Shown piece by piece: positions 640 to 51,890 of a stretch of DNA of 64,000 nt. A program made the position numbers and the translations under genes. The DNA is taken from contig JAZUBA010000050.1 of assembly GCA_045638265.1 (NCBI GenBank), forward strand, positions 41,983 through 105,982, given 5' to 3'. The notes under the pieces were generated by a model. It did no database searches and was not told the DNA's origin. It was given only the letters and a program-made list of their open reading frames with translations. The stretch is from Alphaproteobacteria bacterium. GTDB lineage: Bacteria > Pseudomonadota > Alphaproteobacteria > CAAHEQ01 > UBA3637. Every line of letters begins with the position of its first letter. Position 1 is the first letter of the stretch.

Positions 640-1236
640 ATGATTTACGGATATATTCGCGTCTCCACTGATAAGCAAACCACAGAAAACCAAAAATTCG
701 AAATTGAACAATTTTGTCTTCAAAACAAGATTGTTATTGACAAATGGATAACTGAAACCATCAGTGCTACAAAAGAATTAAATAAACGAAAACTTGGAAA
801 ACTGCTCAAACAAATCAAAAATGATGATATTGTAATTGCTACTGAACTGTCTCGCTTGGGTAGAAATTTGTTGCAAGTGATGAGTATTCTACACCATTGT
901 ATGAGTATCGGGTGTCAAGTTTGGACGATTAAAGACAATTATCGTCTTGGAAAGACCATAGAAAGCAAGGTCTTAGCATTTGCCTTTGGTTTGTCTGCTG
1001 AGATTGAAAGAGATCTCATTTCTCAAAGAACAACCGAAGCCTTAAAACGTCTTCAAAATGAAGGAAAAGTCTTAGGTAGACCAAAAGGCAAGAAAAACCC
1101 AAAACGCAAATTAGATGGTAAAATCTTTCAAATTAAAGAACTTTTAGAAAAGAAAGTCTCAAAGAATAAGATTGCTAAAATCCTTAAAGTGGATATTAAA
1201 ACCTTAAATAAGTTCATTTGTGAATGTTTGACTTAA
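640..1236 (+). CDS. Serine recombinase (resolvase/invertase family, Hin/Gin/TnpR-like)
   Basis: N-terminal YIRVSTDKQ catalytic serine motif, ~198 aa size, C-terminal HTH (KIAKILKVDIKTLNKF). Confidence 0.85.
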   Translation: MIYGYIRVSTDKQTTENQKFEIEQFCLQNKIVIDKWITETISATKELNKRKLGKLLKQIKNDDIVIATELSRLGRNLLQVMSILHHCMSIGCQVWTIKDNYRLGKTIESKVLAFAFGLSAEIERDLISQRTTEALKRLQNEGKVLGRPKGKKNPKRKLDGKIFQIKELLEKKVSKNKIAKILKVDIKTLNKFICECLT

Positions 1237-1244
1237 TCTACACT

Positions 1245-1322
1245 CCCAAAGCACAAATTGCCAGATTACTTGGAGTGGATAAACTGACCTTGTATAGATT
1301 CTTAAAGCATTTGGAAAGTTAA
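1245..1322 (+). pseudogene. Orphan resolvase C-terminal HTH fragment
   Basis: Frame translation YTPKAQIARLLGVDKLTLYRFLKHLES* matches the canonical resolvase C-terminal DNA-binding helix; no upstream catalytic domain in frame, and it lies immediately after the stop of the intact recombinase. Confidence 0.45.
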
Positions 1323-1374
1323 GAATAATGTTCTGATTTGTTCAAAAGTGTTTGATGGGGTTAGTTTTCTCCGA

Positions 1375-1470
1375 ACTTTTTTGATTTTTCTCCTTACTTA
1401 AAAAAGTTTTCTCCGAACTTTACTCCGAACTTTTTATAGTTTTCTGTGAACTTTTTAAAATTTTCAGGGA
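1375..1470. repeat. Iteron-like direct repeats (ttttctccgaactttt x4-5)
   Basis: Visible repeated units agttttctccgaactttttt / gttttctccgaacttt / actccgaacttttta / gttttctgtgaacttttta; a palindrome ttttgaacttttttttgttcaaa recurs at ~2000-2030. Confidence 0.6.
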
Positions 1471-2082
1471 ACCTTTTCTGGGTAGCAACATTTCAATTTT
1501 CCCCAAAGCAACCACCCACCAAAACCAGTTGCCACCCCCGAGCAGTTGGTTTTCCCCATTTATATTTGATCAGACTAATGGCCTTTGGCAGTTGGGATTA
1601 ATTGCTTTTTAGACCTAATTACTTTTCCATATAATCCATCCCATTACTTTGGGTTTAGTTATTTAATCCAATGACTATCCACACATGACTCCCATTACAT
1701 TCCTTTGCTGGTTTAATCCAAAGAAAAAAGAGGTCTAATGTCTTTATTTTGACTTATTATAATCTCTTTCTTTTTTATTTCTATTATAAGTACTATTATA
1801 GGCAACAAAAACACCCCTAAACACCAATGAATACAAGGGGTTTAGAGAAATGACCCGAACATAACAGTATCCAATTCCGAAAGTATCTTTCTCCATTACC
1901 GACAATATGCCTTTTTGCCCGAGACACAAAGATCCTCGATTTTAAATTCCTGACAATAAAAGTGTTTTTTACCCGAAATACCGAACACATAAATATTTTT
2001 GAACTTTTTTTTGTTCAAACGAAAATTTGGATATTTACCCGAATAAATAATTGTGCATTACGAGAAAATATAAGGAGTAAAA

Positions 2083-2664
2083 ATGAGTAGTAGTAAAGCA
2101 CAATTATCTATCACAAAACGAGTATTATTAGACTTTGTTAAGTTTAAAACAAACAATAACTTTAAGTTCTTCGGGGGTAATGAATACATCGCCAGTGTGT
2201 TGGATTTAACCAAGAACACTGCAAAGACTTTTGTCAACGACCTTATTCGTGAAGGATATTTATATAAGGAAACAGATAAAAAAGGCAGACGGTTGCTTTC
2301 TTTAACCGGAAAAGAATATAAACCTTTATTTGAGGATTTAACCAATTTAGATAAAAAGGCATTAAGGGAAGAAAACAATGACCTGAAACAAGATAATAAG
2401 TATTTGGAACAAGAACTGGAAACACATAAACACCATGCAAATATGTTGTTATCAGAGAAAACTGACTTAGTTATATCTAATACAGAGTTAAATATCAAAA
2501 TACAAGAACTTGAAGAAAGAATTGCCAAATTAGAAAACAGAACAACAAAGTTGGAGAATATCTTTTATAAGAATGGAATATCTAAAACACAATTAGATGA
2601 GATGATAGAAAAGAATGAGAACATAAAATCCAATACAACCCAAAACGGCATTCAACGGAAATGA
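2083..2664 (+). CDS. Winged-HTH plus coiled-coil protein (Rep-like initiator or regulator)
   Basis: N-terminal wHTH-like segment (KTFVNDLIREGYLYKETDKKGRRLLSLT) followed by heptad-rich coiled-coil; located downstream of iteron-like repeats. Confidence 0.4.
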   Translation: MSSSKAQLSITKRVLLDFVKFKTNNNFKFFGGNEYIASVLDLTKNTAKTFVNDLIREGYLYKETDKKGRRLLSLTGKEYKPLFEDLTNLDKKALREENNDLKQDNKYLEQELETHKHHANMLLSEKTDLVISNTELNIKIQELEERIAKLENRTTKLENIFYKNGISKTQLDEMIEKNENIKSNTTQNGIQRK

Positions 2665-2772
2665 TAGGGTTTTATAGGTATTGATAGGCAAGATATCTTT
2701 ATTTTTCAATGGTTTTTGTATATATCAGAGATATGTTTAAAAATTGTAACATAATTAACAAAAGGAGAAAAT

Positions 2773-4068
2773 ATGTTAGAAAATCAATTTTATGACGATT
2801 ATCAATCCCCGTTAGGATACAGAGCATTAAAGAATGGATATGATACTTATGGGGTTGATCATTCTCAATTTACAACAAGAGAAGAAGTAGAATATCAAGA
2901 CAAACGCATTAAACGAGAAGAAGAACTCATGAAACAACAACGCAATATGGGTATCACAGGCAACTATATACAATACGGTACGAACTTTTGGAATAAATCA
3001 CCCGAAAATAACTATGGTTTCGGTGGTAGTGAAGTATCCAAGAATTCATATACAAATTCGTTGGAAGAAAAACAAAATGCAATCCCACCATTAAATCAAT
3101 ATACAACAGATATGCCTCCAAATTCGGAATTAAGCAATATAATAACACAAAATCAATCTGATTGGGACAAAACATATTTACAGTGCAACAATCAATTTGT
3201 TCAAAAGAATCCACTTCAAAAAGAATACATTAATGCTTATTATTCAAATAATTTAGCCCATCCATACAAAAGTAATCAATTTAACACAAATCCAAACTCT
3301 TTGTATCAAAGTAGCAATTCTTTAGATTATTTAAAACAATCATTTGGTATAAATGATACATATAAACAAACAACATTTAATAGAAATCAACTAAATAATC
3401 TAACAGAAGAAGAATTACGTAATGAATTTGAAAAGGCTTTTCCAATTCTTCAAAGAATTGAAGGATATGTGGGGCATCCTTATTTAGATACTGCTTGTAA
3501 AGATACTTCTGGAACTGGACATTTAATGGATATGAAGAATTTGCAAAACGAAAAGTCCATTGATTTTTCAAATGAAGAAAATCGTATTGCCTATACAAAT
3601 CTTTCAAACAAAATGAAAAAAAATTTTTGTAAAATTGATCCTGATGGAAATTTAACAACAAATGTAAAAGTGCAAAGGCAAACAGAAGTTTATCCAGAGT
3701 TGGCAAGATTTGTTGTTGATGAAGCAACAGATAAAGAAGTTGCTTATAAGCATTTTAAAGAGCGTTTTAAACAATTACGAGAAGCAATGAATGCACAAAA
3801 TCCTCCAATTATTTGGAAAGACTTGAATGATGATTTGAAATATCCTTTTTGGGATGTTTTATATAATCCCGGAAGAAACACACCTGTTTGGAATTGGAAG
3901 ACAAAGAAAACCGGATGGCCAAATTTAATGGAATCCTATTCAAAAAAAGATTATGAATGGGCTAAAAATGAAGTTAAAAGGAAAGATTTAAACGCAAGAA
4001 CATCCGACCTTCAAAAGAAAATAGATGCAGGTGTTAATGCTTTAATAATCAATCAACAAAATTATTAA
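2773..4068 (+). CDS. Hypothetical N/Q/Y-rich protein
   Basis: 431-aa ORF with RBS aaaggagaaaat ATG; low-complexity N/Q-rich N-terminal half. Confidence 0.5.
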   Translation: MLENQFYDDYQSPLGYRALKNGYDTYGVDHSQFTTREEVEYQDKRIKREEELMKQQRNMGITGNYIQYGTNFWNKSPENNYGFGGSEVSKNSYTNSLEEKQNAIPPLNQYTTDMPPNSELSNIITQNQSDWDKTYLQCNNQFVQKNPLQKEYINAYYSNNLAHPYKSNQFNTNPNSLYQSSNSLDYLKQSFGINDTYKQTTFNRNQLNNLTEEELRNEFEKAFPILQRIEGYVGHPYLDTACKDTSGTGHLMDMKNLQNEKSIDFSNEENRIAYTNLSNKMKKNFCKIDPDGNLTTNVKVQRQTEVYPELARFVVDEATDKEVAYKHFKERFKQLREAMNAQNPPIIWKDLNDDLKYPFWDVLYNPGRNTPVWNWKTKKTGWPNLMESYSKKDYEWAKNEVKRKDLNARTSDLQKKIDAGVNALIINQQNY

Positions 4069-5066
4069 CTATTCTTCGTATAACGATCCTCTTCATCATT
4101 TTGATGAAGAGGATGTTTATCTATATCACGCAAATTATAGCAAAACGGAGCTAATGAAAAATAAGGTTTATGGCTTACATGCTGACCAGTTTTAAAATTA
4201 TTAATATTGTTTGTCCATAATACATTTAAATAACAAGGTCCCGTTCCCCGTGGTTCTATTTTTGTATATATTGGGTTTCCATCAACATCCCAACTTTTTA
4301 TGATCGTTTCATCTGGTAAATTTATCAAAACAATATGAGCAGAAGTTGTTAAAGAGTCTTTATCTTTCAAAGCAATACTCATTTCTTCATTTTGAAAATA
4401 TAATGAACAAAGAGGCCAATATTCTCCTTCACACATCAGATAATTCATTGCGGGTTGTCTGAAACGAAATGATGTATCCGAGAATGTTTTTTGTCTTAAT
4501 TCCTTTTCTTTTTCCCTAATAGTTTTGCGTTCAAACTTTTTATCAATTTCAATATGCATTGAACAACCCTCTTTGAGTCGTCTTAATGTTTGTGTATACC
4601 CAGTTTTATCTTTATCATATGGATTTTCCGTATGAACTTTTAATCGACAATTTGTATCATAACTAATATCTTTATATACAAGATGGGGAAGATACCACGT
4701 TTCTTGAAATACTGTTTTAAATTCTTCATCTTTCAACAATTTTATTTCAAAAGATGTTATTTCATTTAAATTGTCTGTTTGAAAAATAAAATAATAATTA
4801 TTTGTAAAAATATAACAAATAGCCTCTGTTGAAGAACAAAAATCTGTTTCGCAAACCAAATGATTTAAATTTTCCTGCTTAAATTTAAAGGATGTATCAA
4901 AGTTATAACGTTTGCTTAATTGATTATGCATATCTTGATATAAAGTATCAGCTTCTTTCTGGTCTTTAAAAACACCTATTGTAGATTTTTGTTCACAATC
5001 TCCCCAGACAGATGTATTCATTCCTAAAAAACAACTAAAAATGATACTTAATATTTTTTTTCGCAT
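4065..5066 (-). CDS. Secreted hypothetical protein with internal two-fold repeat
   Basis: Signal peptide MRKKILSIIFSCFLGMNTSVWG; internal duplication F[DS]TSF[KR]F[KR]Q...N[HY]L[VM]CE... Confidence 0.5.
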   Translation of the reverse strand: MRKKILSIIFSCFLGMNTSVWGDCEQKSTIGVFKDQKEADTLYQDMHNQLSKRYNFDTSFKFKQENLNHLVCETDFCSSTEAICYIFTNNYYFIFQTDNLNEITSFEIKLLKDEEFKTVFQETWYLPHLVYKDISYDTNCRLKVHTENPYDKDKTGYTQTLRRLKEGCSMHIEIDKKFERKTIREKEKELRQKTFSDTSFRFRQPAMNYLMCEGEYWPLCSLYFQNEEMSIALKDKDSLTTSAHIVLINLPDETIIKSWDVDGNPIYTKIEPRGTGPCYLNVLWTNNINNFKTGQHVSHKPYFSLAPFCYNLRDIDKHPLHQNDEEDRYTKNS

Positions 5067-5137
5067 TATCTACCTTTTGGTTTCTTATTGTATTCTATAA
5101 AAAAATATCAAAATCATATATTATTGTCAAGAGATGT

Positions 5138-5425
5138 TTAACAATACAAAGTAACATTGGTAAAATAATTCAACACTCTTGCCCATTGGTTGGGGTTTCG
5201 GATGGCATAATCAAAAGCAGTTAATCCAAACTTGTCTTTTTGAAACGGATTAGCCCCTTGTTCAAGCAAGTATTCAATCGGTTCGGTATTAGAACTCATA
5301 ATACAACACAGATGTAGTAAGGTTGCTTGATTACCATTAACAGGAGCATTGATGTCTATCATTTCAGACAGAATTTCCTTTAAATCTTCAACATCATCTA
5401 TAAAATAGTTATCTTTATTCATCAT
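5138..5425 (-). CDS. Ankyrin-repeat protein (small)
   Basis: ATLLHLCCIMSSNTEPIEYLLEQGANPFQKDKFGLTAFDYAIRN matches ankyrin repeat consensus. Confidence 0.65.
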   Translation of the reverse strand: MMNKDNYFIDDVEDLKEILSEMIDINAPVNGNQATLLHLCCIMSSNTEPIEYLLEQGANPFQKDKFGLTAFDYAIRNPNQWARVLNYFTNVTLYC

Positions 5426-5443
5426 TTTATCATTCCTTTATAG

Positions 5444-6037
5444 TTGTATTTTTATAAGAATACTTATACATTACTTGATACGGAACGATTGATAAATGAA
5501 CATATTACGGCACAAGGCAAAACGCTAGAAGAAACGAATATGGTATTAAACCACAAAAAAGCATTGGATTTTATGTTGAAATCACCTCAATATTATCAAA
5601 ATTTAAGTGTTTCAAAAATTGAAGAAATACATAAACTGTTAGTTGGCGATTTAAATGTAACAACAGGAATACGAGAAAGTATGGTTGGTATTGTTGGAAC
5701 AAATTACAGACCATTAGATAATTCTCATCAAATAAAAGAAGCGTTAGAAAAACTGATACAACTTATTAACCAGACCCAAAATCCCATTGAGAAAGCTTTA
5801 ATTGCCGTATTGATGATTGCTTACATTCAACCATTTGAAGACGGAAACAAACGAACCTCTCGTATTTTAGGAAATGCGATACTCTTGGCAAATAATTATT
5901 GCCCATTATCATATAGAAGTGTTTATGAAGTTGAATATAAGAAAGGTATCATTCTTTTTTATGAACAAAACAATGCTTCCTATTTTAAGCAATTGTTTCT
6001 TGAACAATTTAAACAAGTAGTTCAAAAATATTTTTAA
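5444..6037 (+). CDS. Fic-domain protein with degenerate active-site motif (QPFEDGNKRTSR)
   Basis: Motif IQPFEDGNKRTSRILGNAILL aligns to Fic HPFx[DE]GNGRxxR, but His->Gln and GNGR->GNKR. Confidence 0.6.
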   Translation: MYFYKNTYTLLDTERLINEHITAQGKTLEETNMVLNHKKALDFMLKSPQYYQNLSVSKIEEIHKLLVGDLNVTTGIRESMVGIVGTNYRPLDNSHQIKEALEKLIQLINQTQNPIEKALIAVLMIAYIQPFEDGNKRTSRILGNAILLANNYCPLSYRSVYEVEYKKGIILFYEQNNASYFKQLFLEQFKQVVQKYF

Positions 6038-6225
6038 AAACCTTTAATTTTTTAGATACACAGATTTATTTCTTTTTCAAATATAAAATAAAAATAATAT
6101 TTTTATTGCAAAATATAAAAATATATTATAATCTTTGCTTTGGAATACAAAAAAGATACTATATATTTCTTGTACTATTCTAAATAATTTTTTTGATTTT
6201 TATAAATGTATGAAAGGAATAAAAC

Positions 6226-6873
6226 ATGTCTAATGAAAAAGAACCTAACACAGCAGATGAAAAAGAACCTAGCACAGCAGAATCTATATTTGGATTTATT
6301 ATGTTTTGTGCTCTGATAATATATTGTGTAGGACAAGTAAGATCTTGTACCGAGAAAACAAACTCATCTGATAACAAAGAAACACCAAGCATATCAAGCA
6401 ATGAGCCAACATCTAGCTTGAATGAATGGAAGGAAGACAGAAAAAAAGAGAATATATTGATAAATAATAACTGCAAGCTATTTTTCAACGCCCTTTCAGA
6501 TGCTTTTGCAACAAATTCATATGGAAAAAAATCAGAAAAACCAATACTAAAAGCCATTTCATATGAAATAAAAGATGATTATTCTAATTTTACTCAACCA
6601 TGTGTTATAACTGTTCAAAACATCCATTCCTTTGCTTCAATTTCATCACTATATGGTCGTGCAAAAGCAAAAGACACAGATAACATAACCCACTCTTTAC
6701 TGGTTCATGAGAAGTTATCTTTAGATCCTCAGGATAAAGGTTATATAAAAATTTATAGAACTGAATTAATCAAAGCACCATATACAGAAATGAAAATTTA
6801 TCCTAATGATTATGATAAAACCTTTATAGGTTTAGAATATTATGGTCAGGTTCCTACTGAATATAGCAGATAA
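6226..6873 (+). CDS. Hypothetical membrane-anchored protein
   Basis: 215-aa ORF; acidic N-term then TM segment IFGFIMFCALIIYCVG. Confidence 0.4.
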   Translation: MSNEKEPNTADEKEPSTAESIFGFIMFCALIIYCVGQVRSCTEKTNSSDNKETPSISSNEPTSSLNEWKEDRKKENILINNNCKLFFNALSDAFATNSYGKKSEKPILKAISYEIKDDYSNFTQPCVITVQNIHSFASISSLYGRAKAKDTDNITHSLLVHEKLSLDPQDKGYIKIYRTELIKAPYTEMKIYPNDYDKTFIGLEYYGQVPTEYSR

Positions 6874-6907
6874 TTTTAATTTTTAAACAAGTTAAAAGGA
6901 TTTAATT

Positions 6908-7285
6908 ATGAGTAAAAAATTTATTTTTTATATTTTCATCCAAGTTTTTTCTTTGATGTTATTAAAATCAACCCCTGCAATTGCATCTGTTGAAGAAGAA
7001 ATAAAAGTAATGAAAACAAATGCACAAAACCTAGCGGTTTCATTAGAACCAAGTGTAGCCAAATGCTTTATATCTTTTGTTGAAAAAGCAGTTGAAGATC
7101 AAGAATTTAAAAGAAGACTAAAGATTTGTGTTGAAACAGAAAAAGTACTATCAAACAAAGCTATAAACATGTCAAGAGCCGCTGATTTAGCAAAATGCCA
7201 TTCTTTAAGAATTAAAGTTATAAATGATGGCCTTGAGGCAGGTAAAAAATGTGAAACACGCTACGAATCCAAAATAGATTGGTAA
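6908..7285 (+). CDS. Small secreted hypothetical protein
   Basis: Signal-peptide-like N-term FIFYIFIQVFSLMLLKSTPAIASV; hairpin terminator follows at ~7318-7345. Confidence 0.45.
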   Translation: MSKKFIFYIFIQVFSLMLLKSTPAIASVEEEIKVMKTNAQNLAVSLEPSVAKCFISFVEKAVEDQEFKRRLKICVETEKVLSNKAINMSRAADLAKCHSLRIKVINDGLEAGKKCETRYESKIDW

Positions 7286-7416
7286 TAAAATACTATTTAT
7301 AAATTAAAATAAATTATTAAAACTCTGTCATCCGACAGAGTTTTTTTATATTCATTCCATTATTTAATCATTCTCTAAATAAATACCTGTATAAATTATA
7401 CCAAAGGAATGAATAT

Positions 7417-7839
7417 ATGACAACAGCAATAGAAAAATTAGATGAATTATTGGCAATAATCAGAAACAGAATGATTGAAGTAAAAGGTTTGCAAGAAAAA
7501 GAAGTTGATGAAACAGATGAAGATGAAATTGAACAATCAGAACAAGATGAACTCCCACAACACCCTGATACAGATTATTTAGTCAAGGTATTTAAGTATT
7601 TAAAAGAATTGGGATATATTAACTCTCAATATGAGTTTTCTGAACAGTTTTTAAACAAAAACAAGTATTATTATGGCATGATATTATCAGAACACAGACA
7701 CCCATCCATAGATGCATTACATTATTTAATCAAATCAATCAGCGAACTAAGTGAAACAGAAACCAACAGCCAAAGACTTGATGATTTATATGAAGAAGGA
7801 CACAGTTTGATTACAAAACGATTGTTGAAGAACTATTAG
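7417..7839 (+). CDS. Acidic hypothetical protein
   Basis: 140-aa ORF, D/E-rich. Confidence 0.4.
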   Translation: MTTAIEKLDELLAIIRNRMIEVKGLQEKEVDETDEDEIEQSEQDELPQHPDTDYLVKVFKYLKELGYINSQYEFSEQFLNKNKYYYGMILSEHRHPSIDALHYLIKSISELSETETNSQRLDDLYEEGHSLITKRLLKNY

Positions 7840-7857
7840 AAACCAAAAATTTTGAAA

Positions 7858-8032
7858 ATCCGTTAAATGTCTTAAAGTTCGAGGTTATTCGAAAAATCCA
7901 ATCGGGTAAAAATCATCAATATCCGACAAATCCGTTCGGGAAAAATGGTACTAAAATCTTAAAATATAGGTGTGTCTAAAAGTCTTTATCGGACAAAGTG
8001 ACGTGTAACTGTGACGGGAAGCAGAAAATCAG
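7858..8032. repeat. ~175-bp repeat immediately 3' of tRNA-Thr (copy 1; inverted copy at 51712-51890 3' of tRNA-Asn)
   Basis: gtctttatcggacaaagtgacgtgtaactgtgacgggaag here matches the reverse complement of cttcccgtcacacttgtacgtcactttacccgatatagac at 51718-51757; the similarity extends over ~175 bp. Confidence 0.7.
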
Positions 8033-8082
8033 GAAAATCAAGCAATAAAAAATCCCTTAAAGACAATGCTTTAAGGGAAAAG

Positions 8083-8157
8083 TGGTGCCGCTGGTGAGAA
8101 TCGGACTCACGACCCCTCCCTTACCAAGGGAGTGCGCTACCACTACGCTACAGCGGC
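8083..8157 (-). tRNA. tRNA-Thr (anticodon GGT)
   Basis: Minus-strand read GCCGCTGTAGCGTAGTGGTAGCGCACTCCCTTGGTAAGGGAGGGGTCGTGAGTCCGATTCTCACCAGCGGCACCA; cloverleaf with anticodon loop TTGGTAA. Confidence 0.85.
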
Positions 8158-8345
8158 TTTTGATTTTTTGTTTATATACAATTATCATCTCTTTGTCAAG
8201 TGATTTTTTTCTTGCTGGCTAAATCTTTTTTGCTACATTCATTCAACTTTAATTGTTTTTCGGTTGACTTTATTTTTAATTTGATTAATATTATTTTATC
8301 ATTTAACTTTCTGTATTTCATTTTACCTGATTACCGAGTGAAACA

Positions 8346-9176
8346 ATGCAACCTCAAACGCCTCTTGTATCTATCATTATTCCTTGTTATAATCAAGCTC
8401 ATTATCTAAAAGAATGTTTGGATTCTGTTTTCGCTCAATCTTACCAAAATTTTGAAGTTATCATTGTTAATGACGGTTCTACAAATCCTGATACAACGGA
8501 TATTTTAAATAAATTGACTTATCCGAAATTAACAATTATTCATCAAGAAAATCAAGGCGCTTCCGGCGCTAGAAATACTGCCATAAAAACAGCAAAAGGA
8601 AAATATATTTTACCGTTAGATGCTGATGATAAAATAGCCTCTGCTTTTTTAGAAAAAGCAATCCCTATACTTGAAAACAATGAAAACATCGGTATTGTTG
8701 GCGGATTAACTGAATTTTTTGGAATAAAAACAGGATTATTTCAATTACCGCCTTTTCAGTTTCCAGCTATTTTAAAAGAAAATATGCTTGTTTGCAGTTG
8801 TGTATTTCGTCGGTGTGATTGGGAAAAAGTGGGCGGATATAATACAAATATGATATATGGTTTAGAAGATTGGGATTTTTGGCTCGCATTAATTGAATTG
8901 AAACGGGAAGTTTATCAATTAAATGAAGTATGTTTGTATTACCGCAAAAAAAATGTATCCCGTACAACAGAACTTGAAAAAAACAAAAGTTTGATGGTTA
9001 AACAAATTATTCAAAATCACCCTGCTCTTTATAATGCTTACCCGATATATAAAAAAAAGTTATTGCATAACAATACAAAATTATATAAATTGAAGCGTTT
9101 AATAATCAAACTTGTTTGTTTGATAACGCCTGTACAATCTTGGCGAAAAAAATTGCGTTCTTATTACAAGGGATGA
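8346..9176 (+). CDS. Family 2 glycosyltransferase
   Basis: N-term VSIIIPCYNQAHYLKECLDSVFAQSY, DxD (LDADD), ED motif. Confidence 0.8.
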   Translation: MQPQTPLVSIIIPCYNQAHYLKECLDSVFAQSYQNFEVIIVNDGSTNPDTTDILNKLTYPKLTIIHQENQGASGARNTAIKTAKGKYILPLDADDKIASAFLEKAIPILENNENIGIVGGLTEFFGIKTGLFQLPPFQFPAILKENMLVCSCVFRRCDWEKVGGYNTNMIYGLEDWDFWLALIELKREVYQLNEVCLYYRKKNVSRTTELEKNKSLMVKQIIQNHPALYNAYPIYKKKLLHNNTKLYKLKRLIIKLVCLITPVQSWRKKLRSYYKG

Positions 9177-9179
9177 AAT

Positions 9180-10034
9180 ATGACAACACCTCTCATTTCT
9201 GTTTTAATGCCGGTATACAATACTGATGAAATTTATTTAAGAGAAGCCATTGAGTCAGTTTTAAACCAAACATATACGAATTTTGAGTTTATTATTTGCG
9301 ATGATAAATCAACAAATAATGCCTTATCCGTGATTCAATCTTATCATGACAAACGTATACGACTCATTCAAAATGAAAAAAATTCAGGTATCAGTGTAAC
9401 GCGTAACAAATTGTGCAAAATGGCAAAAGGTAAATATATTGCCCTTGCAGATAGTGACGATATTTCTTTACCAACCCGTTTTGAAAAACAAATTGCTTTT
9501 TTAGAATCTCATGCCGATATATCTCTTGTCGGAGCGTGGTATGAACGTTTTCCTCAAAAATTTATACCGCAACTCCCTGAAAAAGTATCACTTGTAGATA
9601 TGTTAAAATGGTGTGCTGTTGCTCAACCGGTTGTTATGTATCGTAAAACTGATTTTGAAGACAAAAATTTAATCTACGATACAAATTTATCTTGTGCCGT
9701 TGATTACGATATGTGGTGTCGGGCATTAATGAGTGGATTAAAAATGGCTAATATCCCAGAGGTTTTATTAAAATACAGATGGCATGAAAAGAATATTTCA
9801 CATACCAAACAAGATTTACAAATTGAAACAACAAAAAATATAAAAAAAAGAATTGCTCAATATTTAACACAAGATAAAGATTTACAAGACAAATTATTGC
9901 AATTAAATGACAGCACTCCTTCCAAAAAAATATATTTATTTGGAAAAATACCGTTTTTGAAAATCAAATCAAAAAATGAGTTGCAGAAATGGTACTTGTT
10001 CGGATGTTTGCCGATTTTAAAAATAAAGAAATAA
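9180..10034 (+). CDS. Family 2 glycosyltransferase
   Basis: ISVLMPVYNTDEIYLREAIESVLNQTY, DSDD. Confidence 0.8.
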   Translation: MTTPLISVLMPVYNTDEIYLREAIESVLNQTYTNFEFIICDDKSTNNALSVIQSYHDKRIRLIQNEKNSGISVTRNKLCKMAKGKYIALADSDDISLPTRFEKQIAFLESHADISLVGAWYERFPQKFIPQLPEKVSLVDMLKWCAVAQPVVMYRKTDFEDKNLIYDTNLSCAVDYDMWCRALMSGLKMANIPEVLLKYRWHEKNISHTKQDLQIETTKNIKKRIAQYLTQDKDLQDKLLQLNDSTPSKKIYLFGKIPFLKIKSKNELQKWYLFGCLPILKIKK

Positions 10035-10043
10035 AACAAATGG

Positions 10044-11819
10044 TTAAATAATTTCTTTATCGTTGTATAATACTGTCGGAAAGTTTAAATAAACAGGCGG
10101 ATAATTCTCTATATAACGCACAATCAAACTTTCTTCAATAGATAAAAATCCTTTTTCGGAAAACATACCCAATTTGCGACACAAACTCCGATGATGTACA
10201 AATGTATTTAAATGAATATCACAATGATTAGCAATGTCTTGACAATCACATTTATCGCCGATTAAAAAGCCGAATTTTTCTGATTTTAAACGACCGTAAT
10301 AAGTTTTTTTGTCTTTTTCAAGTGCCAACGCATAGCTTTCCAAAAAGTATGGATATAATTCATTTTCAGTATCTAAATAAGCAATCCAATTATTTTTAGC
10401 TTGTTTTAGAGCAAAATTCAAACTTTTGCACCGGCCTGATTTTTTTCTGTAAAAATAGCGGATTTTTCCCGATTTTAATTCGCTTGTATATCGCAAACGT
10501 ATATATTCTTCCGTTTCATCAACAGAACCGTCATCAACAATAATCAACTCAAAGTTTTGATATGTTTGTTGTAAACAGGAAACAATGGCTTTATCCATTA
10601 ATTCTTTGTGATTAAACGTATATAAAATAATAGAAAAGTTTGCATCCGGACTGATTTGCGGTTTTTCAGGAATAAAAGGAAGCATATCTTGATGATTTTC
10701 CTGAATATAGTGATATGTCTTTTCAACCCCTTCAAAATTAAGCCCTTGATTTTGAAGTGAATTCAAAGGAATAATCGGACATCTGTGTGATAACATTGTT
10801 ATTGGTAATGTCATCATATCCGTTACCATATTAAACGGATAAAGATATGATTTATCCTGATGGGCAATATAACCGCCATATGAAAAACCATGATTTTTTA
10901 AAACACGAAACAATCCGGCTTCATATTTAAAAAAGTCATCCCGTTCGTCCATTTCCCGTTCAATAGATAAAATAAAATCTGAAAAAACAGTTGATTGAAA
11001 CACTTTTGGACGCACTGTCAATAAGTAATGTTGTGCATAAGCTGTTTGTTTAGATTGTAATGTTGTCAGACCCCAATAATCTATACCTCGTCCGGACATT
11101 TCATCAAACATTTCTTTCAGAGGAAAAAACGGTCCAATACCTCTGTCATTGCAAAAAACAAGTGAACGAGTAGATGAAAGTAATCCTTTGTCTTTAACAT
11201 ATAAATACCCCAATTTATATGAACCAAATAATCCACCTCTATGCCGTTGACATAAACAATAATTGACAATGTCTTTTATCTTTTCGGCTTCTTGTGGAAA
11301 AATGGGACAATCGGCAATAAAAACAATGTTACCGACGACTTTTTTTAATTCTGTTAAGTAATGAACAACCGAATCCGAAATACGTCCATCTGTCATAAAA
11401 GCCGAGAAAATTGCCGTTCGATCAGTCGGAATGAGCGGTAAAAAACGCCGTTCTACTGATTTTGTTTTTTTAGGAAAATGAACGGTATCAAATTTAGGAA
11501 ATCTTTTCTTACGGGTCCGAATTAATAAATCCGCCAAAGGACAAACACCTTTATTCAAAACCTCCGGATACAATTCAAAATATTGTTTTGTATCAAATAT
11601 ACGACTGGGGTTTTTCCCTTCTTTCCAACCATATTTAAAATAATGACGAGCGACATCAACCGTGTCATCAATATTCGGATTTTGCGATAAATACCACTCT
11701 TCTTCAAAGAATGAAGACCCGCGTATTCGTTCAATTGATAAACGTTCTTTAAATTCTTTATCATCCATTAAGCGGAAAAAACGTTTTAATTTAAGCATTT
11801 TTATCGGCATTGAGTACAA
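10044..11819 (-). CDS. Large two-domain glycosyltransferase (C-terminal GT2 domain plus N-terminal polysaccharide-synthesis domain)
   Basis: C-terminal half FSIILYTFNHKELMDKAIVSCLQQTYQNFELIIVDDGSVDETEEY is GT2-like; 591 aa. Confidence 0.6.
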   Translation of the reverse strand: MYSMPIKMLKLKRFFRLMDDKEFKERLSIERIRGSSFFEEEWYLSQNPNIDDTVDVARHYFKYGWKEGKNPSRIFDTKQYFELYPEVLNKGVCPLADLLIRTRKKRFPKFDTVHFPKKTKSVERRFLPLIPTDRTAIFSAFMTDGRISDSVVHYLTELKKVVGNIVFIADCPIFPQEAEKIKDIVNYCLCQRHRGGLFGSYKLGYLYVKDKGLLSSTRSLVFCNDRGIGPFFPLKEMFDEMSGRGIDYWGLTTLQSKQTAYAQHYLLTVRPKVFQSTVFSDFILSIEREMDERDDFFKYEAGLFRVLKNHGFSYGGYIAHQDKSYLYPFNMVTDMMTLPITMLSHRCPIIPLNSLQNQGLNFEGVEKTYHYIQENHQDMLPFIPEKPQISPDANFSIILYTFNHKELMDKAIVSCLQQTYQNFELIIVDDGSVDETEEYIRLRYTSELKSGKIRYFYRKKSGRCKSLNFALKQAKNNWIAYLDTENELYPYFLESYALALEKDKKTYYGRLKSEKFGFLIGDKCDCQDIANHCDIHLNTFVHHRSLCRKLGMFSEKGFLSIEESLIVRYIENYPPVYLNFPTVLYNDKEII

Positions 11820-11828
11820 CCTTTATCA

Positions 11829-12854
11829 TTATTTGTCTGTATTTAATTTTTTCAAATACCATTCTACAGTTTTTTTGATGCCACTGTCAAATGTTTCTTG
11901 TGCTTTCCACCCTAATTTTGTTTCTAACTTTGTTGAATCAATCGCATAACGAAAATCATGACCTGCCCTATCTTGCACAAATGTAATCAATTCATCATAC
12001 TTGCGTCCGTTTGAACGGGGTACATACATATCCAATAATGCACAAATTGTTTTAACAATAGATATATTGTTTTTCTCATTATGACCGCCGACATTGTAGG
12101 TTTCACCGGCTATACCTTTGTGAAAAATCAAGTCAATTGCATGACAATGATCTGCCACATATAACCAATCCCTTACGTTTAAGCCTTGTCCGTATATTGG
12201 CAATGGTTCGCCTTTTAAAGCTTTTGAAATAATACAGGGAATCAATTTTTCAGCATGTTGTTTCGGTCCGTAATTATTAGAACAATTTGATGTTGTTACA
12301 TTAAGTCCGTATGTATGAAAATAAGCTCTTACCAAAAAGTCAGAACCGGCCTTGGTTGCCGAATAAGGACTGTTTGGGGCATACGGTGTTGTTTCACAAA
12401 ACAAACCCTCTTCACCTAATGTACCATAAACTTCATCTGTTGAAATATGATGAAAACGACAATGTTCATAACCAACCTTTGGTTGGTTCGGTGCATTCAT
12501 CCAGTGTTTGCGAGCTGTTTCCAGCAAATGAAACGTACCGATTAAGTTCGTATTGATAAATGCTTTTGGATTTTTGATGGAATTATCTACATGACTTTCA
12601 GCGGCAAAATGAATAACGCCTTGAATATCATATTTTTCAAATATCGTTTCAACTAATGTTTCATCACAAATGTCACCCTGTATAAAACAATAATTATCCA
12701 TTGTTTCACATTCACTTAAATTATCCGTTGAACCGGCATAAGTCAGCTTATCTAAATTAACAATTTGATATTGCGGATATTTTTCACAAAAATACGGTAT
12801 AAAATTTGAACCGATAAAACCGGCACCTCCCGTAACTAAAATTGTTTGAGACAT
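11829..12854 (-). CDS. rfbB: dTDP-glucose 4,6-dehydratase
   Basis: MSQTILVTGGAGFIGSNF Rossmann motif, YxxxK SDR catalytic; start trimmed to ATG at 12854. Confidence 0.85.
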   Translation of the reverse strand: MSQTILVTGGAGFIGSNFIPYFCEKYPQYQIVNLDKLTYAGSTDNLSECETMDNYCFIQGDICDETLVETIFEKYDIQGVIHFAAESHVDNSIKNPKAFINTNLIGTFHLLETARKHWMNAPNQPKVGYEHCRFHHISTDEVYGTLGEEGLFCETTPYAPNSPYSATKAGSDFLVRAYFHTYGLNVTTSNCSNNYGPKQHAEKLIPCIISKALKGEPLPIYGQGLNVRDWLYVADHCHAIDLIFHKGIAGETYNVGGHNEKNNISIVKTICALLDMYVPRSNGRKYDELITFVQDRAGHDFRYAIDSTKLETKLGWKAQETFDSGIKKTVEWYLKKLNTDK

Positions 12855-13666
12855 TGAACTAAACTCTCCTTCCAATGCGGAATGGTTAAATGAAATGTGT
12901 TTTTGATTTTCGTCTTATCCAATACACTATAAAATGGGCGAATGGCTTTTGTCGGGTATTCTGATGACAAAATAGGATAAATCTGACAATTCAAATGAGA
13001 TAAGACCATAATCGCTGTTGCAAAATCATACCATGAACAAACACCTTCGTTCGTGTAATGATAAATCCCCTTGTTTTCAACAGTCATTTGAGGTAAAATA
13101 TCAACAATGGCTTGAGCTAAATCACCGGCAAAAGTCGGTGTTCCGATTTGATCGCAAACAACATTTAATCTTGTCCGTTCACATCCTAAACGACGCATTG
13201 TTTTCACAAAATTCTGACCGTTTGCCGAATATAGCCAAGCGGTCCGTATAATAACGGCATTTTGAGCATATTTAAGAACTGCTTGTTCGCCCTGCTCTTT
13301 TGTTATACCATAAACAGACAGCGGATTGGGTTTGTCATCAGGCGTGTATGGTCTATACATATGTCCGTCAAAAACATAATCAGTTGAAATATGAATCAGT
13401 TTACAGCCTGTTTTTGCTAAATTTTCAGGACCGACAACATTAACGGCATAAGCAGTTTCTTTATCATCCTCTGCTTTATCAACTGCCGTATAAGCTGCAC
13501 AATTAATAATGGTTGTTATCTGATATTTATGAATAAAAGACTCAACATCTTCATAATTTGTAATATCCAAAGTATCCGTATCGGTCAAAATAGCTTGCGG
13601 TAATAATTTTGTCAGTTCAAGCCCTAATTGTCCTTTTGCACCCGTAATTAATATTTTTTCCTGCAT
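12836..13666 (-). CDS. rfbD: dTDP-4-dehydrorhamnose reductase
   Basis: MQEKILITGAKGQLG; RmlD-like length; start trimmed to 13666. Confidence 0.8.
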   Translation of the reverse strand: MQEKILITGAKGQLGLELTKLLPQAILTDTDTLDITNYEDVESFIHKYQITTIINCAAYTAVDKAEDDKETAYAVNVVGPENLAKTGCKLIHISTDYVFDGHMYRPYTPDDKPNPLSVYGITKEQGEQAVLKYAQNAVIIRTAWLYSANGQNFVKTMRRLGCERTRLNVVCDQIGTPTFAGDLAQAIVDILPQMTVENKGIYHYTNEGVCSWYDFATAIMVLSHLNCQIYPILSSEYPTKAIRPFYSVLDKTKIKNTFHLTIPHWKESLVQCLKQF

Positions 13667-13677
13667 TTCATTTTCCG

Positions 13678-14238
13678 TCACTTGAAACAATTTGTTCTTT
13701 CTTGATAATCTTTCAATGTTCCTGACAAACAATCTTTTTCTGAAACAATAATTTTATCCTGAGGAATCTGCCAATCTACTCCGATGGTTTCATCATCATA
13801 ACGTATCCCTAATTCTGCTGATTTACAATACAAATTATCACATTTATAAGCAAAAACCGCTTTTTCACTTAACACTGAAAATCCATGTAAAAAACCACGA
13901 GGAATAAAAAGTTGGCGTTTATTTTCATCTGACAATTCAACCGCAACATAACGACCGAATGTTTGTGAATTCGGACGAATATCTACGGCAACATCTAACA
14001 CACGTCCCTGTAAAACACGCACAAGTTTTGCCTGTGCAAATTCACCTGTTTGACAATGCAAACCTCTGATAACACCATAAGAAGACTCAGATTGATTATC
14101 TTGCACAAATTTTGCCGTTATACCGTTTTTTATAAATTCGGCTTCATTGTAACTTTCAAAAAAATATCCCCGAGAATCGTGAAATACTTTCGGTTCAACA
14201 ATTATCACACCCGCAATATCCGTTTTAATAAAATTCAT
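13678..14238 (-). CDS. rfbC: dTDP-4-dehydrorhamnose 3,5-epimerase
   Basis: GVIIVEPKVFHDSRGYFFESY...RGLHCQ cupin motifs typical of RmlC. Confidence 0.85.
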   Translation of the reverse strand: MNFIKTDIAGVIIVEPKVFHDSRGYFFESYNEAEFIKNGITAKFVQDNQSESSYGVIRGLHCQTGEFAQAKLVRVLQGRVLDVAVDIRPNSQTFGRYVAVELSDENKRQLFIPRGFLHGFSVLSEKAVFAYKCDNLYCKSAELGIRYDDETIGVDWQIPQDKIIVSEKDCLSGTLKDYQERTNCFK

Positions 14239-15112: not shown

Positions 15113-15960
15113 TTAACCTCCAACTTCATTTTTATTTTAATAAAAGGTATATATTTTAAGTATTTCGGTTTGCAAGAGCCGACTTGTTTCATTTTAAAAA
15201 CAGGAATACAACCAAACAATTTTCCCCGAATAATATAATTATTATTCAAATGAACTTTATTCCACAATTCAGATTGGTCTTGTTTCAAAAACTGATGAAT
15301 TTTATCTACTGACTCCAAACGTTTATTATCTTGCAATTTAGATGTATTTGTTTCATGCCAACGATATTTCATTAACACTTTTTGAATATTATAAAATTTT
15401 GTTTTTCCGATTAAACGTGCCCAAAGAGCATAATCTTCAGCAGGGGTAAATTCTTTTTCATACCTGATATTATGCTTTTTTAACACATCAGCACGTATCA
15501 TGGCACTGGGGTGAAATACAGCACAACCGGATATTAAATAGTCTTCTATATCATTGTTGTATTCCGGTAATTTTGAAGCTTTTTTTATTTTCGGGAAACG
15601 AATATATAGACCACCTATCACGCCGATTTCAGGGGTTTCATCCAAAATTTTTACTTGCATTTCAAACCGATTGGATACAGCTATATCATCATGATCCATA
15701 ACCGCTAAGTACTCACCTTGTGCTAAATCAATCAATTTATTTCGTGATGGGGTAATGCCTAAATTTGCCTCATTTTTGAAATATTTTATTCGTTTGTCGT
15801 GATAAGATAAAACAACATCTTCCCGTGTCTCTTCGGGACAATCATCTAAAATCAGAAATTCAAAATCCGTATAAGTTTGCGATAAAATACTTTCTATGGC
15901 TTCTTTTAAATATGTTTCATTTGTTTTATAAATAGGCATTAAAACCGAAATTTTAGGCAT
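15109..15960 (-). CDS. Family 2 glycosyltransferase
   Basis: ISVLMPIYKTNETYLKEAIESILSQTY, DHDD; C-terminus paralogous to the 9180-10034 C-terminus. Confidence 0.8.
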   Translation of the reverse strand: MPKISVLMPIYKTNETYLKEAIESILSQTYTDFEFLILDDCPEETREDVVLSYHDKRIKYFKNEANLGITPSRNKLIDLAQGEYLAVMDHDDIAVSNRFEMQVKILDETPEIGVIGGLYIRFPKIKKASKLPEYNNDIEDYLISGCAVFHPSAMIRADVLKKHNIRYEKEFTPAEDYALWARLIGKTKFYNIQKVLMKYRWHETNTSKLQDNKRLESVDKIHQFLKQDQSELWNKVHLNNNYIIRGKLFGCIPVFKMKQVGSCKPKYLKYIPFIKIKMKLEVK

Positions 15961-51580: not shown

Positions 51581-51655
51581 TCCAGCGTAGCTCAGTGGTA
51601 GAGCAATCGGCTGTTAACCGATCGGTCGTAGGTTCGAGCCCTACCGCTGGAGCCA
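51581..51655 (+). tRNA. tRNA-Asn (GTT)
   Basis: TCCAGCGTAGCTCAGTGGTAGAGCAATCGGCTGTTAACCGATCGGTCGTAGGTTCGAGCCCTACCGCTGGAGCCA. Confidence 0.85.
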
Positions 51656-51659
51656 TTTA

Positions 51660-51690
51660 AAAGCGTTCATTCAATGAACGCTTTTTTTGT
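51660..51690 (+). terminator. Rho-independent terminator after tRNA-Asn
   Basis: aaagcgttcattcaatgaacgcttttttt. Confidence 0.7.
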
Positions 51691-51711
51691 TGCCTTATTT
51701 TTCCTTAATTT

Positions 51712-51890
51712 TATCTTCCCGTCACACTTGTACGTCACTTTACCCGATATAGACATTTAGACACATCTATATTTTAAGATTTTAATACCACTTTTCCCGA
51801 ATGGATTTTTAAGATTTCAATGACTTCTACCCGATTAGATTTTTGGAATGATTGAACATGAATCATTTTTTTGACCGATTGCCCTTTATA
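51712..51890. repeat. ~175-bp repeat immediately 3' of tRNA-Asn (copy 2; inverted copy of 7858-8032)
   Basis: See copy 1; same orientation relative to the adjacent tRNA 3' end in both cases. Confidence 0.7.

What the first reader, a model, noticed from the sequence alone, without database searches (positions are those of the whole stretch)
7858..8032. The same ~175-bp element sits directly 3' of two different tRNA genes (tRNA-Thr and tRNA-Asn)
7858-8032 and 51712-51890 are reverse-complementary copies. Each begins ~50-60 bp past the 3' end of a tRNA gene (Thr at 8083, Asn at 51655), in the same orientation relative to that tRNA. Conserved sequence abutting tRNA 3' ends is typical of integrase arm-type or att regions at the boundary of tRNA-integrated genomic islands. 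On the island side of the Thr copy are a serine recombinase, Rep-like and iteron modules, Fic and ankyrin genes. On the island side of the Asn copy are gene C, tRNA-Val, Fic, a DxD glycosyltransferase, tRNA-His, gene D and a phage lysis cassette. No integrase gene lies in this window, so the islands may be decayed or mobilised in trans.
Basis: seen in the sequence. Interest (0 to 1): 0.65.

Follow-up and report, generated by a model that had tools for sequence, protein, structure and literature searches.

The report
Integrase docking arm of tRNA-inserted islands
The repeated ~166-bp sequence after tRNA-Thr and tRNA-Asn is most likely the leftover integrase-docking "arm" of a family of mobile genomic islands that insert at the ends of tRNA genes in gut Alphaproteobacteria; this is an ordinary kind of feature from an undescribed family, and both copies in this window have lost their integrase.

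Summary
Bases 7887-8052 and 51684-51849 are reverse-complementary copies (166 nt, 81-82% identity, E about 5e-40). Each starts 29-31 nt past a tRNA 3' end, directly after that tRNA's own terminator hairpin, in the same orientation.

The same element, with an invariant 28-mer, occurs once in each of 10 other gut alphaproteobacterial MAG species and in several metagenome contigs. Full copies always sit beside a tRNA gene (Thr, Asn, Ala, Asp, Leu, Ser) or a displaced tRNA 3' fragment.

In three related loci the order is tyrosine integrase (DUF6538 + Phage_integrase, 583 aa), then a DUF6626 gene, then the element, then the terminator, facing the tRNA. One of these loci is 98% identical to this window at the tRNA-Thr locus. 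The window keeps DUF6626 but lacks the integrase, from exactly its stop codon upstream.

The element holds two 34-bp repeats and two or three 13-bp-spaced TGACGGG repeats. More distant integrases of the family have the same layout with different repeat words.

It shows no RNA structure and matches no Rfam family, phage or plasmid.

Verdict: this is the arm of a tRNA-integrated island's att junction. The Thr copy is a decayed island and the Asn copy a solitary relic. It is a new member of a known kind, of modest interest.

The parts
8083..8157 (-). tRNA-Thr (anticodon GGT), the intact target gene
   Evidence: ARAGORN; Rfam tRNA, 68.5 bits
8053..8078 (-). Intrinsic terminator hairpin for tRNA-Thr (TCCCTTAAAG-loop-CTTTAAGGGA followed by a T run). 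It differs in sequence from the Asn terminator and is inferred to be supplied by the island.
   Evidence: Terminator scan. In related loci the terminator travels with the element beside displaced tRNA fragments.
7998..8052 (+). Thr copy, tRNA-proximal 'R part': two direct GTGACG(GG) repeats at 7998-8003 and 8011-8018 (13-nt spacing), then an A-rich spacer of about 30 nt. Candidate integrase arm-type sites.
   Evidence: Sequence and alignments. There are 3 TGACGGG repeats in L018. Equivalent 11-nt-spaced triplets occur in L021 (GGTGTTACA), L022 (TGTGTTACA) and L028 (TGTGTCCCA).
7887..7997 (+). Thr copy, distal 'L part': two tandem ~34-bp units (AAATCCAATCGGG at 7894-7906 and AAATCCGTTCGGG at 7928-7940, each followed by AAAATCTTA), plus the most conserved block, AAAATCTTAAAATATAGGTGTGTCTAAAAGTCTTTATC.
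   Evidence: Self-repeat analysis: 12 direct-repeat windows against a mean of 2.2 in 200 shuffles, a count the best shuffle equalled. Motif positions. The 28-mer is invariant in 10 other species, though it was itself the search pattern.
7417..7839 (+). DUF6626 gene (140 aa), a conserved partner of the element and the integrase; possibly a DNA-binding accessory factor.
   Evidence: Pfam PF20331, E 1e-9. Found whole or as a fragment upstream of the element in L001, L004, L006, L008, L009, L011, L012, L023, L024 and L026. The AF2 model is all-helical; the best Foldseek hits are Xre-type HTH proteins, but none is significant.
7286..7306 (.). Breakpoint. Similarity to the integrase-bearing sister contig L011 starts at 7306, which is the stop codon of the L011 integrase. 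Upstream of it the window has unrelated genes instead of int.
   Evidence: blastn of L011 against the window: 98.2% over L011 1138-11670 = window 7306-17844. tblastn with the integrase finds nothing in the window.
640..7285 (.). Remaining Thr-side island cargo: resolvase/invertase 640-1236, iteron-like repeats 1365-1472, HTH_36/Rep-like 2083-2664, ankyrin 5138-5425, Fic 5444-6037, and others. The left end of the island is not identified.
   Evidence: Pfam and PHROGs. The HTH_36 protein is 57-60% identical to genes 2-3.5 kb upstream of int in L021 and L022. Fic is 85% identical to the Fic gene upstream of int in L019.
51581..51655 (+). tRNA-Asn (anticodon GTT), preceded by tRNA-Cys at 51488-51562
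   Evidence: ARAGORN; Rfam, 71.6 bits
51659..51685 (+). Intrinsic terminator hairpin for tRNA-Asn
   Evidence: Terminator scan
51686..51849 (-). Asn copy of the element: R part 51686-51738 (GTGACG at 51738-51733, GTGACGGG at 51725-51718) and L part 51746-51849. A solitary arm with no DUF6626 or integrase nearby.
   Evidence: tblastn for int and DUF6626 is negative here. The upstream flank 51850-51898 resembles L005 and L025.

Best explanation
The element is the integrase-proximal arm of the att junction of a family of genomic islands that integrate site-specifically into the extreme 3' end of tRNA genes in uncultured, AT-rich gut Alphaproteobacteria.

In an intact member the order is: island cargo, a 583-aa tyrosine integrase (DUF6538 N-terminal domain plus Phage_integrase catalytic domain), a DUF6626 gene, the L part (two 34-bp repeats), the R part (2-3 TGACGGG repeats at 13-bp spacing), an A/T-rich spacer, a terminator, and then the tRNA 3' end.

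The following mechanism is inferred from the lambda / P4 / Islander paradigm. The island's attP carries a short copy of the tRNA 3' end, so that integration regenerates the tRNA, and the island also supplies a replacement terminator. The integrase binds the repeated arm words with one domain and the core at the tRNA end with another, possibly helped by DUF6626 acting on the L-part repeats.

The arm is conserved while the core and terminator segment differs between islands aimed at Thr, Asn, Ala, Asp, Leu or Ser tRNAs.

In this window both copies are relics. The Thr island kept DUF6626 and some cargo but lost int. At tRNA-Asn only the arm remains. They can move only if a related integrase acts in trans.

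Shown here: sequence conservation, tRNA adjacency, linkage to int and DUF6626, displaced tRNA fragments, and the repeat architecture.
Inferred: protein binding, the exact crossover position, and any current activity.
For: - Repeat confirmed: 166 nt, 81-82% identity, E 4.7e-40.
- All full copies lie after a tRNA terminator in one orientation: Thr and Asn; Ala, Asp and Leu; Ser; Leu and Asp.
- Int (PF20172 + PF00589), then DUF6626, then the element, facing the tRNA, in L006, L008 and L011. L011 is the same species and locus as the window at 98.2% identity, with the break exactly at the int stop codon.
- The element, its terminator and a 6-17-nt tRNA 3' remnant are displaced from the tRNA by secondary insertions in L003, L005, L009, L018 and L027. 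In L009 and L018 the inserted islet is flanked by GTACCAAAA direct repeats. This places the crossover at the tRNA end, upstream of the terminator and element.
- Family-wide architecture with lineage-specific repeat words. Integrases 53-57% identical have three 9-bp repeats at 11-nt spacing about 40 nt before the terminator and tRNA: L021 GGTGTTACA, L022 TGTGTTACA, L028 TGTGTCCCA. A 33%-identical integrase (L029) has two TGTGACACA repeats between tRNA-Gln and int.
- Internal 34-bp direct repeats exceed the shuffled mean.
- The window's Thr-side cargo is homologous to cargo of int-bearing islands.
- The predicted Int N-terminus is a three-stranded sheet plus helix, the topology expected of an arm-binding domain.
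Against: - No integrase in the window, and no direct repeat of the tRNA-Thr or tRNA-Asn 3' end of 11 nt or more within the window. Neither island's far end is defined, and no empty site or circular junction was recovered.
- The DUF6538 domain could not be tied to known arm-binding domains by sequence or fold search.
- Diverged copies of the L part alone lie inside islands in divergent promoter regions (L012 8342-8444 and 11528-11628, L013, L027, L010). Part of the element may therefore also, or instead, be a regulatory operator.
- L018 shows int and DUF6626 next to an arm with the motifs in the opposite orientation, upstream of a tRNA fragment. The geometry is therefore not uniform.
- Protein binding was not tested.
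Confidence: 0.8

Rival explanations
1. The element is mainly a transcriptional operator or promoter region bound by an island regulator such as DUF6626. It is reused upstream of island genes and only incidentally lies next to tRNAs, so it is not a recombination arm.
For: Diverged L-part copies sit in divergent intergenic regions upstream of island genes. One example is L012 11528-11628, followed by a TTGACA-17-TATACT promoter and a 165-aa gene; others are L012 8342-8444, L013 and L027. The best, non-significant, fold matches of DUF6626 are Xre-type repressors.
Against: Full copies (L plus R) are found only at tRNA ends or tRNA remnants, between convergent genes where there is nothing downstream to transcribe. 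The R-part tandem repeats and their position relative to the tRNA recur with different words in distant integrase lineages that lack DUF6626. The two roles are not mutually exclusive.
Confidence: 0.12
2. The element encodes a small structured RNA, an sRNA gene placed after tRNA genes.
For: It is intergenic, conserved and about 166 nt long, flanked by a hairpin with A and T runs on either side that could terminate transcription in both directions at some loci.
Against: No Rfam family matches, even at E up to 10. Folding z-scores are -1.66 (with the terminator included) and +0.31. The consensus fold is weak (-5.6 and -11.1 kcal/mol), with 1 and 0 compensatory pairs respectively. No sigma-70-like promoter lies inside it. 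A 110-140-nt indel between the L and R parts is tolerated.
Confidence: 0.03
3. It is a dispersed REP/MITE-like repeat, or host chromosomal sequence that happens to follow tRNA genes and is unrelated to mobile islands.
For: Short, AT-rich, repeated and intergenic.
Against: There are only 2 copies in 64 kb and one exact core per species genome. It has no terminal inverted repeats or palindromic structure. Five other tRNAs in the window lack it. It is physically linked to int and DUF6626. The same tRNA-Asp carries it behind two different terminators in different species.
Confidence: 0.03
4. It is the end of a Tn7-like or other transposon that homes downstream of tRNA genes, and the repeats are transposase-binding sites.
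For: Multiple direct repeats lie in a roughly 150-bp end placed just after a gene's terminator, which resembles Tn7 ends at attTn7 (recalled from general knowledge, not tested).
Against: No transposase, TnsB/TnsC or TniQ genes were seen in any of the annotated flanks. The adjacent recombinase is a tyrosine integrase. The displaced junctions carry tRNA 3' fragments, typical of site-specific recombination within the tRNA rather than insertion beyond it.
Confidence: 0.02

Closest known systems
tRNA-integrated genomic islands and prophages with tyrosine integrases, as catalogued in Islander (PMC4383910); lambda-type attP with arm-type sites
   Same: Integration at a tRNA 3' end. Island sequence regenerates the tRNA. 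A displaced tRNA fragment marks a junction. The integrase gene lies next to the junction. Direct repeats in the arm are arranged like the P'1-P'3 sites of lambda (the lambda comparison is from general knowledge).
   Different: The integrase belongs to an uncharacterised DUF6538-bearing lineage of about 585 aa with no solved relative and only remote phage homologues (24.7-40.5% identity over part of the protein). The displaced identity blocks seen are very short (6-17 nt). The island brings its own terminator. The arm is conserved across islands aimed at six or more different tRNAs.
KplE1 (CPS-53) prophage attL with IntS and TorI (PMC2951348)
   Same: The integrase gene abuts the tRNA-side junction, and the arm region carries sites for the integrase and a small accessory DNA-binding protein.
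   Different: Here int and DUF6626 are transcribed towards the junction. The accessory gene is a DUF6626 protein with no detectable relation to TorI/Xis-type winged-helix RDFs. The taxon and the sequences are unrelated.
Decayed ('grounded') prophages and island remnants at tRNA loci (PMC6379469)
   Same: Loss of the integrase with retention of att-proximal sequence and some cargo, and tandem accretion of islands at one tRNA.
   Different: The relic here is recognisable only because intact relatives exist in other MAGs. The Asn copy is reduced to the bare arm.

Membership tests
att-junction arm of a tRNA-targeting tyrosine-integrase island | Lies directly at the 3' end of a tRNA gene in a fixed orientation | tested here: met
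   Both window copies, and every full copy in 20 or so related loci, lie next to a tRNA or a tRNA 3' remnant.
att-junction arm of a tRNA-targeting tyrosine-integrase island | Adjacent tyrosine integrase gene | tested here: not met
   There is none in the window (tblastn). It is met in relatives L006, L008 and L011 (PF00589 E 7.6e-11, 42.5 bits against a cutoff of 27.1), including the same locus of the same species. The window copies are therefore classed as relics, not active members.
att-junction arm of a tRNA-targeting tyrosine-integrase island | Displaced tRNA 3' fragment or direct repeat marking the other island end | tested here: inconclusive
   No repeat of 11 nt or more of the Thr or Asn tRNA end occurs in the window, and the Thr island may run off the window. 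Remnants of 6-17 nt are seen in L003, L005, L009, L018 and L027. GTACCAAAA repeats flank an inserted islet. Matches of 10 nt elsewhere are within chance.
att-junction arm of a tRNA-targeting tyrosine-integrase island | Repeated arm-type words at helical spacing that vary with the integrase lineage | tested here: met
   2-3 TGACGGG repeats at 13 nt and two 34-bp units. GGTGTTACA, TGTGTTACA and TGTGTCCCA triplets occur at 11 nt with integrases 53-57% identical, and TGTGACACA pairs with a 33%-identical integrase. Binding itself was not tested.
att-junction arm of a tRNA-targeting tyrosine-integrase island | Integrase has an arm-binding N-terminal domain | tested here: inconclusive
   DUF6538 covers residues 8-60. 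The AF2 model gives beta-beta-alpha-beta-alpha at pLDDT 83.
att-junction arm of a tRNA-targeting tyrosine-integrase island | Presence/absence or content polymorphism between strains; excision products | tested here: inconclusive
   Island content differs upstream of 7306 between the window and L011. No empty site or circular junction was retrieved. Excision cannot be tested with these tools.
Structured small RNA (Rfam family or new) | Significant fold, covariation, or a covariance-model match | tested here: not met
REP/MITE-type dispersed repeat | Many copies at unrelated intergenic sites; palindromic or terminal inverted-repeat structure | tested here: not met
   2 copies in the window and 1 exact core per species genome. 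No inverted self-repeats.

The most novel reading that the evidence does not exclude
This would be a self-contained 'retargetable' integration module: a DUF6538 integrase, DUF6626 acting as a new kind of accessory or directionality factor that binds the 34-bp repeats, and a conserved arm. The module would keep its arm and protein partners constant while swapping a short cassette made of the tRNA end and a terminator. That swap would let closely related islands colonise at least six different tRNA genes. Integrase-less relics and small islets, such as the two copies here and the DR-flanked islets in L009 and L018, would be mobilised in trans through the retained arm, in the manner of satellites.
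Probability: 0.2. Interest if true: 0.55.

Novelty: new member of a known kind. Interest (0 to 1): 0.33.

Why it matters
The finding marks two tRNA loci in this genome as island integration sites. It explains the foreign-looking cargo left of tRNA-Thr (Fic, ankyrin, Rep-like protein, resolvase).

It also defines a recognisable signature for an undescribed island family in uncultured gut Alphaproteobacteria: the conserved 28-mer, the arm repeats, DUF6626 and a DUF6538 integrase. That signature could be used to delimit islands and their defence or effector cargo in MAGs, where such regions usually break assemblies.

It offers a first functional hypothesis for two Pfam domains of unknown function. 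The biology itself, a tyrosine-integrase island at a tRNA gene, is textbook.

Tried and rejected
- **Rfam:** nothing at gathering thresholds or at E up to 10, apart from tRNAs.
- **RNA folding:** single-sequence and alignment folds of both strands show no significant structure or covariation, so the sRNA idea was dropped.
- **Distal direct repeats:** searches for repeats of the tRNA ends in the window and in loci gave only chance-level 10-12-mers.
- **Exact-protein look-ups:** the window's resolvase and DUF6626 are not on record, so the contig could not be extended beyond the window.
- **Empty-site search:** a metagenome scan with a species-specific flank of tRNA-Thr gave 0 hits.
- **Other collections:** a viral-contig scan with the 28-mer gave 0 hits. 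blastn of DUF6626 plus the element against plasmids and phages gave no match.
- **Gene C as a degenerate integrase:** rejected. It is a prepilin-like, Cys-rich paralogue.
- **Asn-side region as an island of this family:** no shared cargo.
- **DUF6626 fold search:** only non-significant Xre-HTH-like hits; PDB profile search weak.
- **DUF6538 as an arm-binding domain:** the PDB profile search, hhalign against the lambda Int N-terminus and Foldseek were all inconclusive.
- **Literature:** searches for DUF6626 and DUF6538 returned 0 papers.
- **Tn7-like end:** considered from memory and rejected, because there are no transposition genes and a tyrosine integrase is present.

Full report
**Observation.**
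ARAGORN and Rfam place tRNA-Thr(GGT) at 8083-8157 on the minus strand and tRNA-Asn(GTT) at 51581-51655 on the plus strand. The repeat finder reports an inverted repeat with arms 7887-8052 and 51684-51849, 166 nt long and 81% complementary. blastn gives 82% identity with E 4.7e-40.

In the pairwise alignment the similarity stops at each tRNA's own terminator hairpin. Those hairpins lie at 8078-8053 (minus strand) and 51659-51685 (plus strand) and are unrelated in sequence. The orientation relative to the tRNA is the same in both. A profile search finds no third copy in the window.

**What it is not.**
- No Rfam family matches, even at E up to 10.
- Folding either strand gives z-scores of -1.66 (terminator included) and +0.31.
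- Consensus folds of eight copies are weak, with 1 and 0 compensatory pairs on the two strands.
- No sigma-70-like promoter lies inside it.
- It is not a high-copy dispersed repeat.

**Distribution.**
A 28-nt core (AAAATCTTAAAATATAGNTGTGTCTAAA) matches exactly once in each of ten species-representative genomes. All ten are gut-derived 'Alphaproteobacteria bacterium' MAGs. It also matches five metagenome contigs and no viral contig.

In these loci the full element again follows a tRNA terminator in the same orientation: tRNA-Ala(GGC), Asp(GTC) and Leu(CAA). In a further locus it follows tRNA-Ser(TGA). The terminators are specific to each tRNA and lineage, while the element is 80-90% conserved.

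**Link to an integrase.**
The 140-aa ORF that ends just before the Thr copy (7417-7839) is a DUF6626 protein. It has 181 homologues, many on short contigs. It, or a fragment of it, precedes the element in ten other loci.

In L006 and L008 (tRNA-Leu) and in L011 (tRNA-Thr), the gene immediately upstream of DUF6626 is a tyrosine recombinase, 583 aa in L006 and L008 (cut short by the contig end in L011). Its DUF6538 domain covers residues 8-60 and its Phage_integrase domain covers 384-540 (E 7.6e-11, above Pfam's cutoff).

L011 comes from the same species as the window: 98.2% identity over 10.5 kb, covering DUF6626, the element, tRNA-Thr and the glycosyltransferase genes beyond. The similarity begins at window position 7306, which corresponds to the integrase stop codon in L011. 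The window has no integrase homologue anywhere. The Thr island here is thus a derivative that has lost int.

Its remaining cargo is nevertheless of the same island family. The HTH_36/Rep-like protein (2083-2664) is 57-60% identical to genes 2-3.5 kb upstream of int in L021 and L022. The Fic protein (5444-6037) is 85% identical to the Fic gene upstream of int in L019. The small ankyrin protein also recurs.

**Evidence for recombination at the tRNA end.**
In five loci the unit made of element, terminator and a short tRNA 3' fragment has been separated from the tRNA.
- **L009:** the unit ends in ...TGGTAC, the last 6 nt of tRNA-Leu. Then come 3.5 kb encoding WYL, UDG-like and DnaB-C proteins, then the intact tRNA-Leu with a different terminator. 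GTACCAAAAAT is repeated at both junctions.
- **L018:** the same far junction appears, with a 1.3-kb HNH islet flanked by GTACCAAAA. On the other side is a tRNA-Leu 3' fragment preceded by int, DUF6626 and an arm carrying the same motifs in reverse orientation, which suggests a tandem array of islands.
- **L003, L005, L027:** these retain 6-nt (Ala), about 15-nt (Asp) and 17-nt (Asp) remnants.

This is the signature described for tRNA-targeting islands, in which island sequence restores the gene and a displaced fragment marks a junction (Islander, PMC4383910). It places the crossover upstream of the terminator and the element. Both are therefore island DNA.

**Anatomy.**
Reading from DUF6626 towards the tRNA, the element has these parts:
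- Two tandem ~34-bp units, AAATCC(A/G)(A/T)TCGGGnAAAA...AAAATCTTA, at 7894 and 7928. There are 12 direct-repeat windows against a mean of 2.2 in shuffles, a count that only the best of 200 shuffles reached.
- The highly conserved AT-rich block ending GTCTTTATC at 7990.
- Two GTGACG(GG) words 13 nt apart, at 7998 and 8011. L018 has three TGACGGG words.
- An A-rich spacer of about 30 nt, and then the terminator.

The layout recurs in more distant members of the integrase family with different words.
- **L021** (int 54% identical; tRNA-Leu-TAA): three GGTGTTACA repeats at 11-nt spacing.
- **L022** (57%; tRNA-Ala-CGC): three TGTGTTACA repeats at 11-nt spacing, plus two TCGTCCA repeats 35 nt apart.
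- **L028** (53%; tRNA-Thr-GGT): three TGTGTCCCA repeats at 11-nt spacing.
- In all three the triplets lie about 40 nt before the terminator.
- **L029** (33% identical): two TGTGACACA repeats between tRNA-Gln and int.

Repeat words that change with the integrase while their position stays fixed are what arm-type sites would show. The lambda P' arm is the textbook comparison (from general knowledge). Binding was not tested.

**Proteins.**
- **Integrase.** It has no close solved relative and only remote phage homologues. An AF2 model of its first 70 residues (pLDDT 83) is a three-stranded sheet with helices. That fits an arm-binding domain, but searches by sequence and fold were inconclusive.
- **DUF6626.** It models as an acidic, disordered N-terminal region plus a confident five-helix C-terminal domain. 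The top Foldseek hits are Xre-type HTH proteins (HigA, C-proteins, SinR), all with E above 1. This is only a hint that it binds DNA. DUF6626 accompanies integrases that are at least 68% identical to the L008 enzyme, and these are the loci with this arm or (in L018) its motifs. It is absent from the 53-57% group.

**The Asn copy.**
No int, DUF6626 or shared cargo lies beside it. The next gene, 'gene C' at 52153-53352, has a prepilin-type N-terminus and a Cys-rich C-terminus. It has three paralogues elsewhere in the window and its own terminator. tRNA-Val and tRNA-His follow.

**Open points.**
- Diverged copies of the L part alone occur inside islands, upstream of genes (L012, L013, L027, L010). 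The 34-bp repeats may therefore double as operators.
- A homologous 110-140-nt insert with a terminator-like hairpin lies exactly between the L and R parts in L002, L004, L010, L024 and L027.
- The far ends of both window islands, an empty site and excision products were not found.

**Verdict.**
The element is the conserved arm of the tRNA-side att junction of a previously undescribed family of tyrosine-integrase islands, and it is present here as two integrase-less relics. It is a new member of a well-known kind of system, of modest interest. That interest rests mainly on the conserved arm with exchangeable tRNA-specific cores, and on the functional leads it gives for DUF6538 and DUF6626.

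Noticed in passing
window 33487-33538 / 33638-33689; 53349-53396 / 53489-53536; also 41771-41819 and 56628-56707: Pairs of ~50-nt inverted repeats (core TTGCAACGATTT...AAACGTACGTTTA) enclose about 95 nt immediately upstream of, or overlapping, the starts of the prepilin-like Cys-rich paralogues (31658-33469 -, 41998-43188 +, 52153-53352 -, 56719-58350 +). The layout looks like invertible promoters (phase variation). A resolvase/invertase gene lies at 640-1236.
   Followed up: no
window 31658-33469, 41998-43188, 52153-53352, 56719-58350: A paralogous family of secreted proteins with a type IV prepilin-like N-terminus (…MVEILGVLAIIGVLS…) and variable Cys-rich C-terminal regions. The 5' ends and upstream regions are conserved (repeats D2, D3, I2, I3).
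   Followed up: partly
window 1365-1472 and 2083-4068: Iteron-like direct repeats (TTTTCTCCGAAC) lie upstream of an HTH_36/Rep-like gene and a 431-aa ORF with no family match. This is a plasmid-like replication module inside the Thr-side island. The HTH_36 protein recurs in integrase-bearing islands L021 and L022.
   Followed up: partly
L009 3776-7320; L018 3030-4375: Small islets without an integrase (3.5 kb with WYL, UDG-like and DnaB-C genes; 1.3 kb with HNH) are inserted at the tRNA-Leu 3' end. They are flanked by GTACCAAAA(A) direct repeats and begin with their own terminator plus a different repeat-rich arm (GGTTCGATTTTGTAAGGCTCAATTTT...TTTATCGAACT). They are candidates for elements mobilised in trans.
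   Followed up: partly
L002 2168-2268, L004 173-283, L010 4302-4402, L024 1128-1179, L027 4951-5051: A homologous 110-140-nt insert containing a terminator-like hairpin (GAAAAACAGTT-TGGGG-AACTGTTTTTC) lies exactly between the L and R parts of the element, replacing GGGCAAA. It is unclear whether the long form is ancestral or an insertion.
   Followed up: partly
L012 8342-8444 and 11528-11628; L013 11528-11630; L027 2737-2824; L010 806-860; L005 4825-4931: Diverged copies of the L part only (with the middle variant AATCTTATAGAyAGAsTAGGGGTTAAATGTC) lie inside islands in divergent promoter regions. One is followed by a TTGACA-17-TATACT promoter.
   Followed up: partly
window 61760-64000: A tandem family of small minus-strand ORFs (109-183 aa) with repeated segments (62121-62246 against 63875-64000 at 91%; 62326-62412 against 62776-62862). 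Not examined.
   Followed up: no
L021 14-6967; L022 1-5798: Cargo of the related integrase-bearing islands is rich in defence genes: type I R-M HsdM/HsdS, GmrSD, a Y-family polymerase, an AAA_14/DUF4143 ATPase, and a resolvase at the far side.
   Followed up: no
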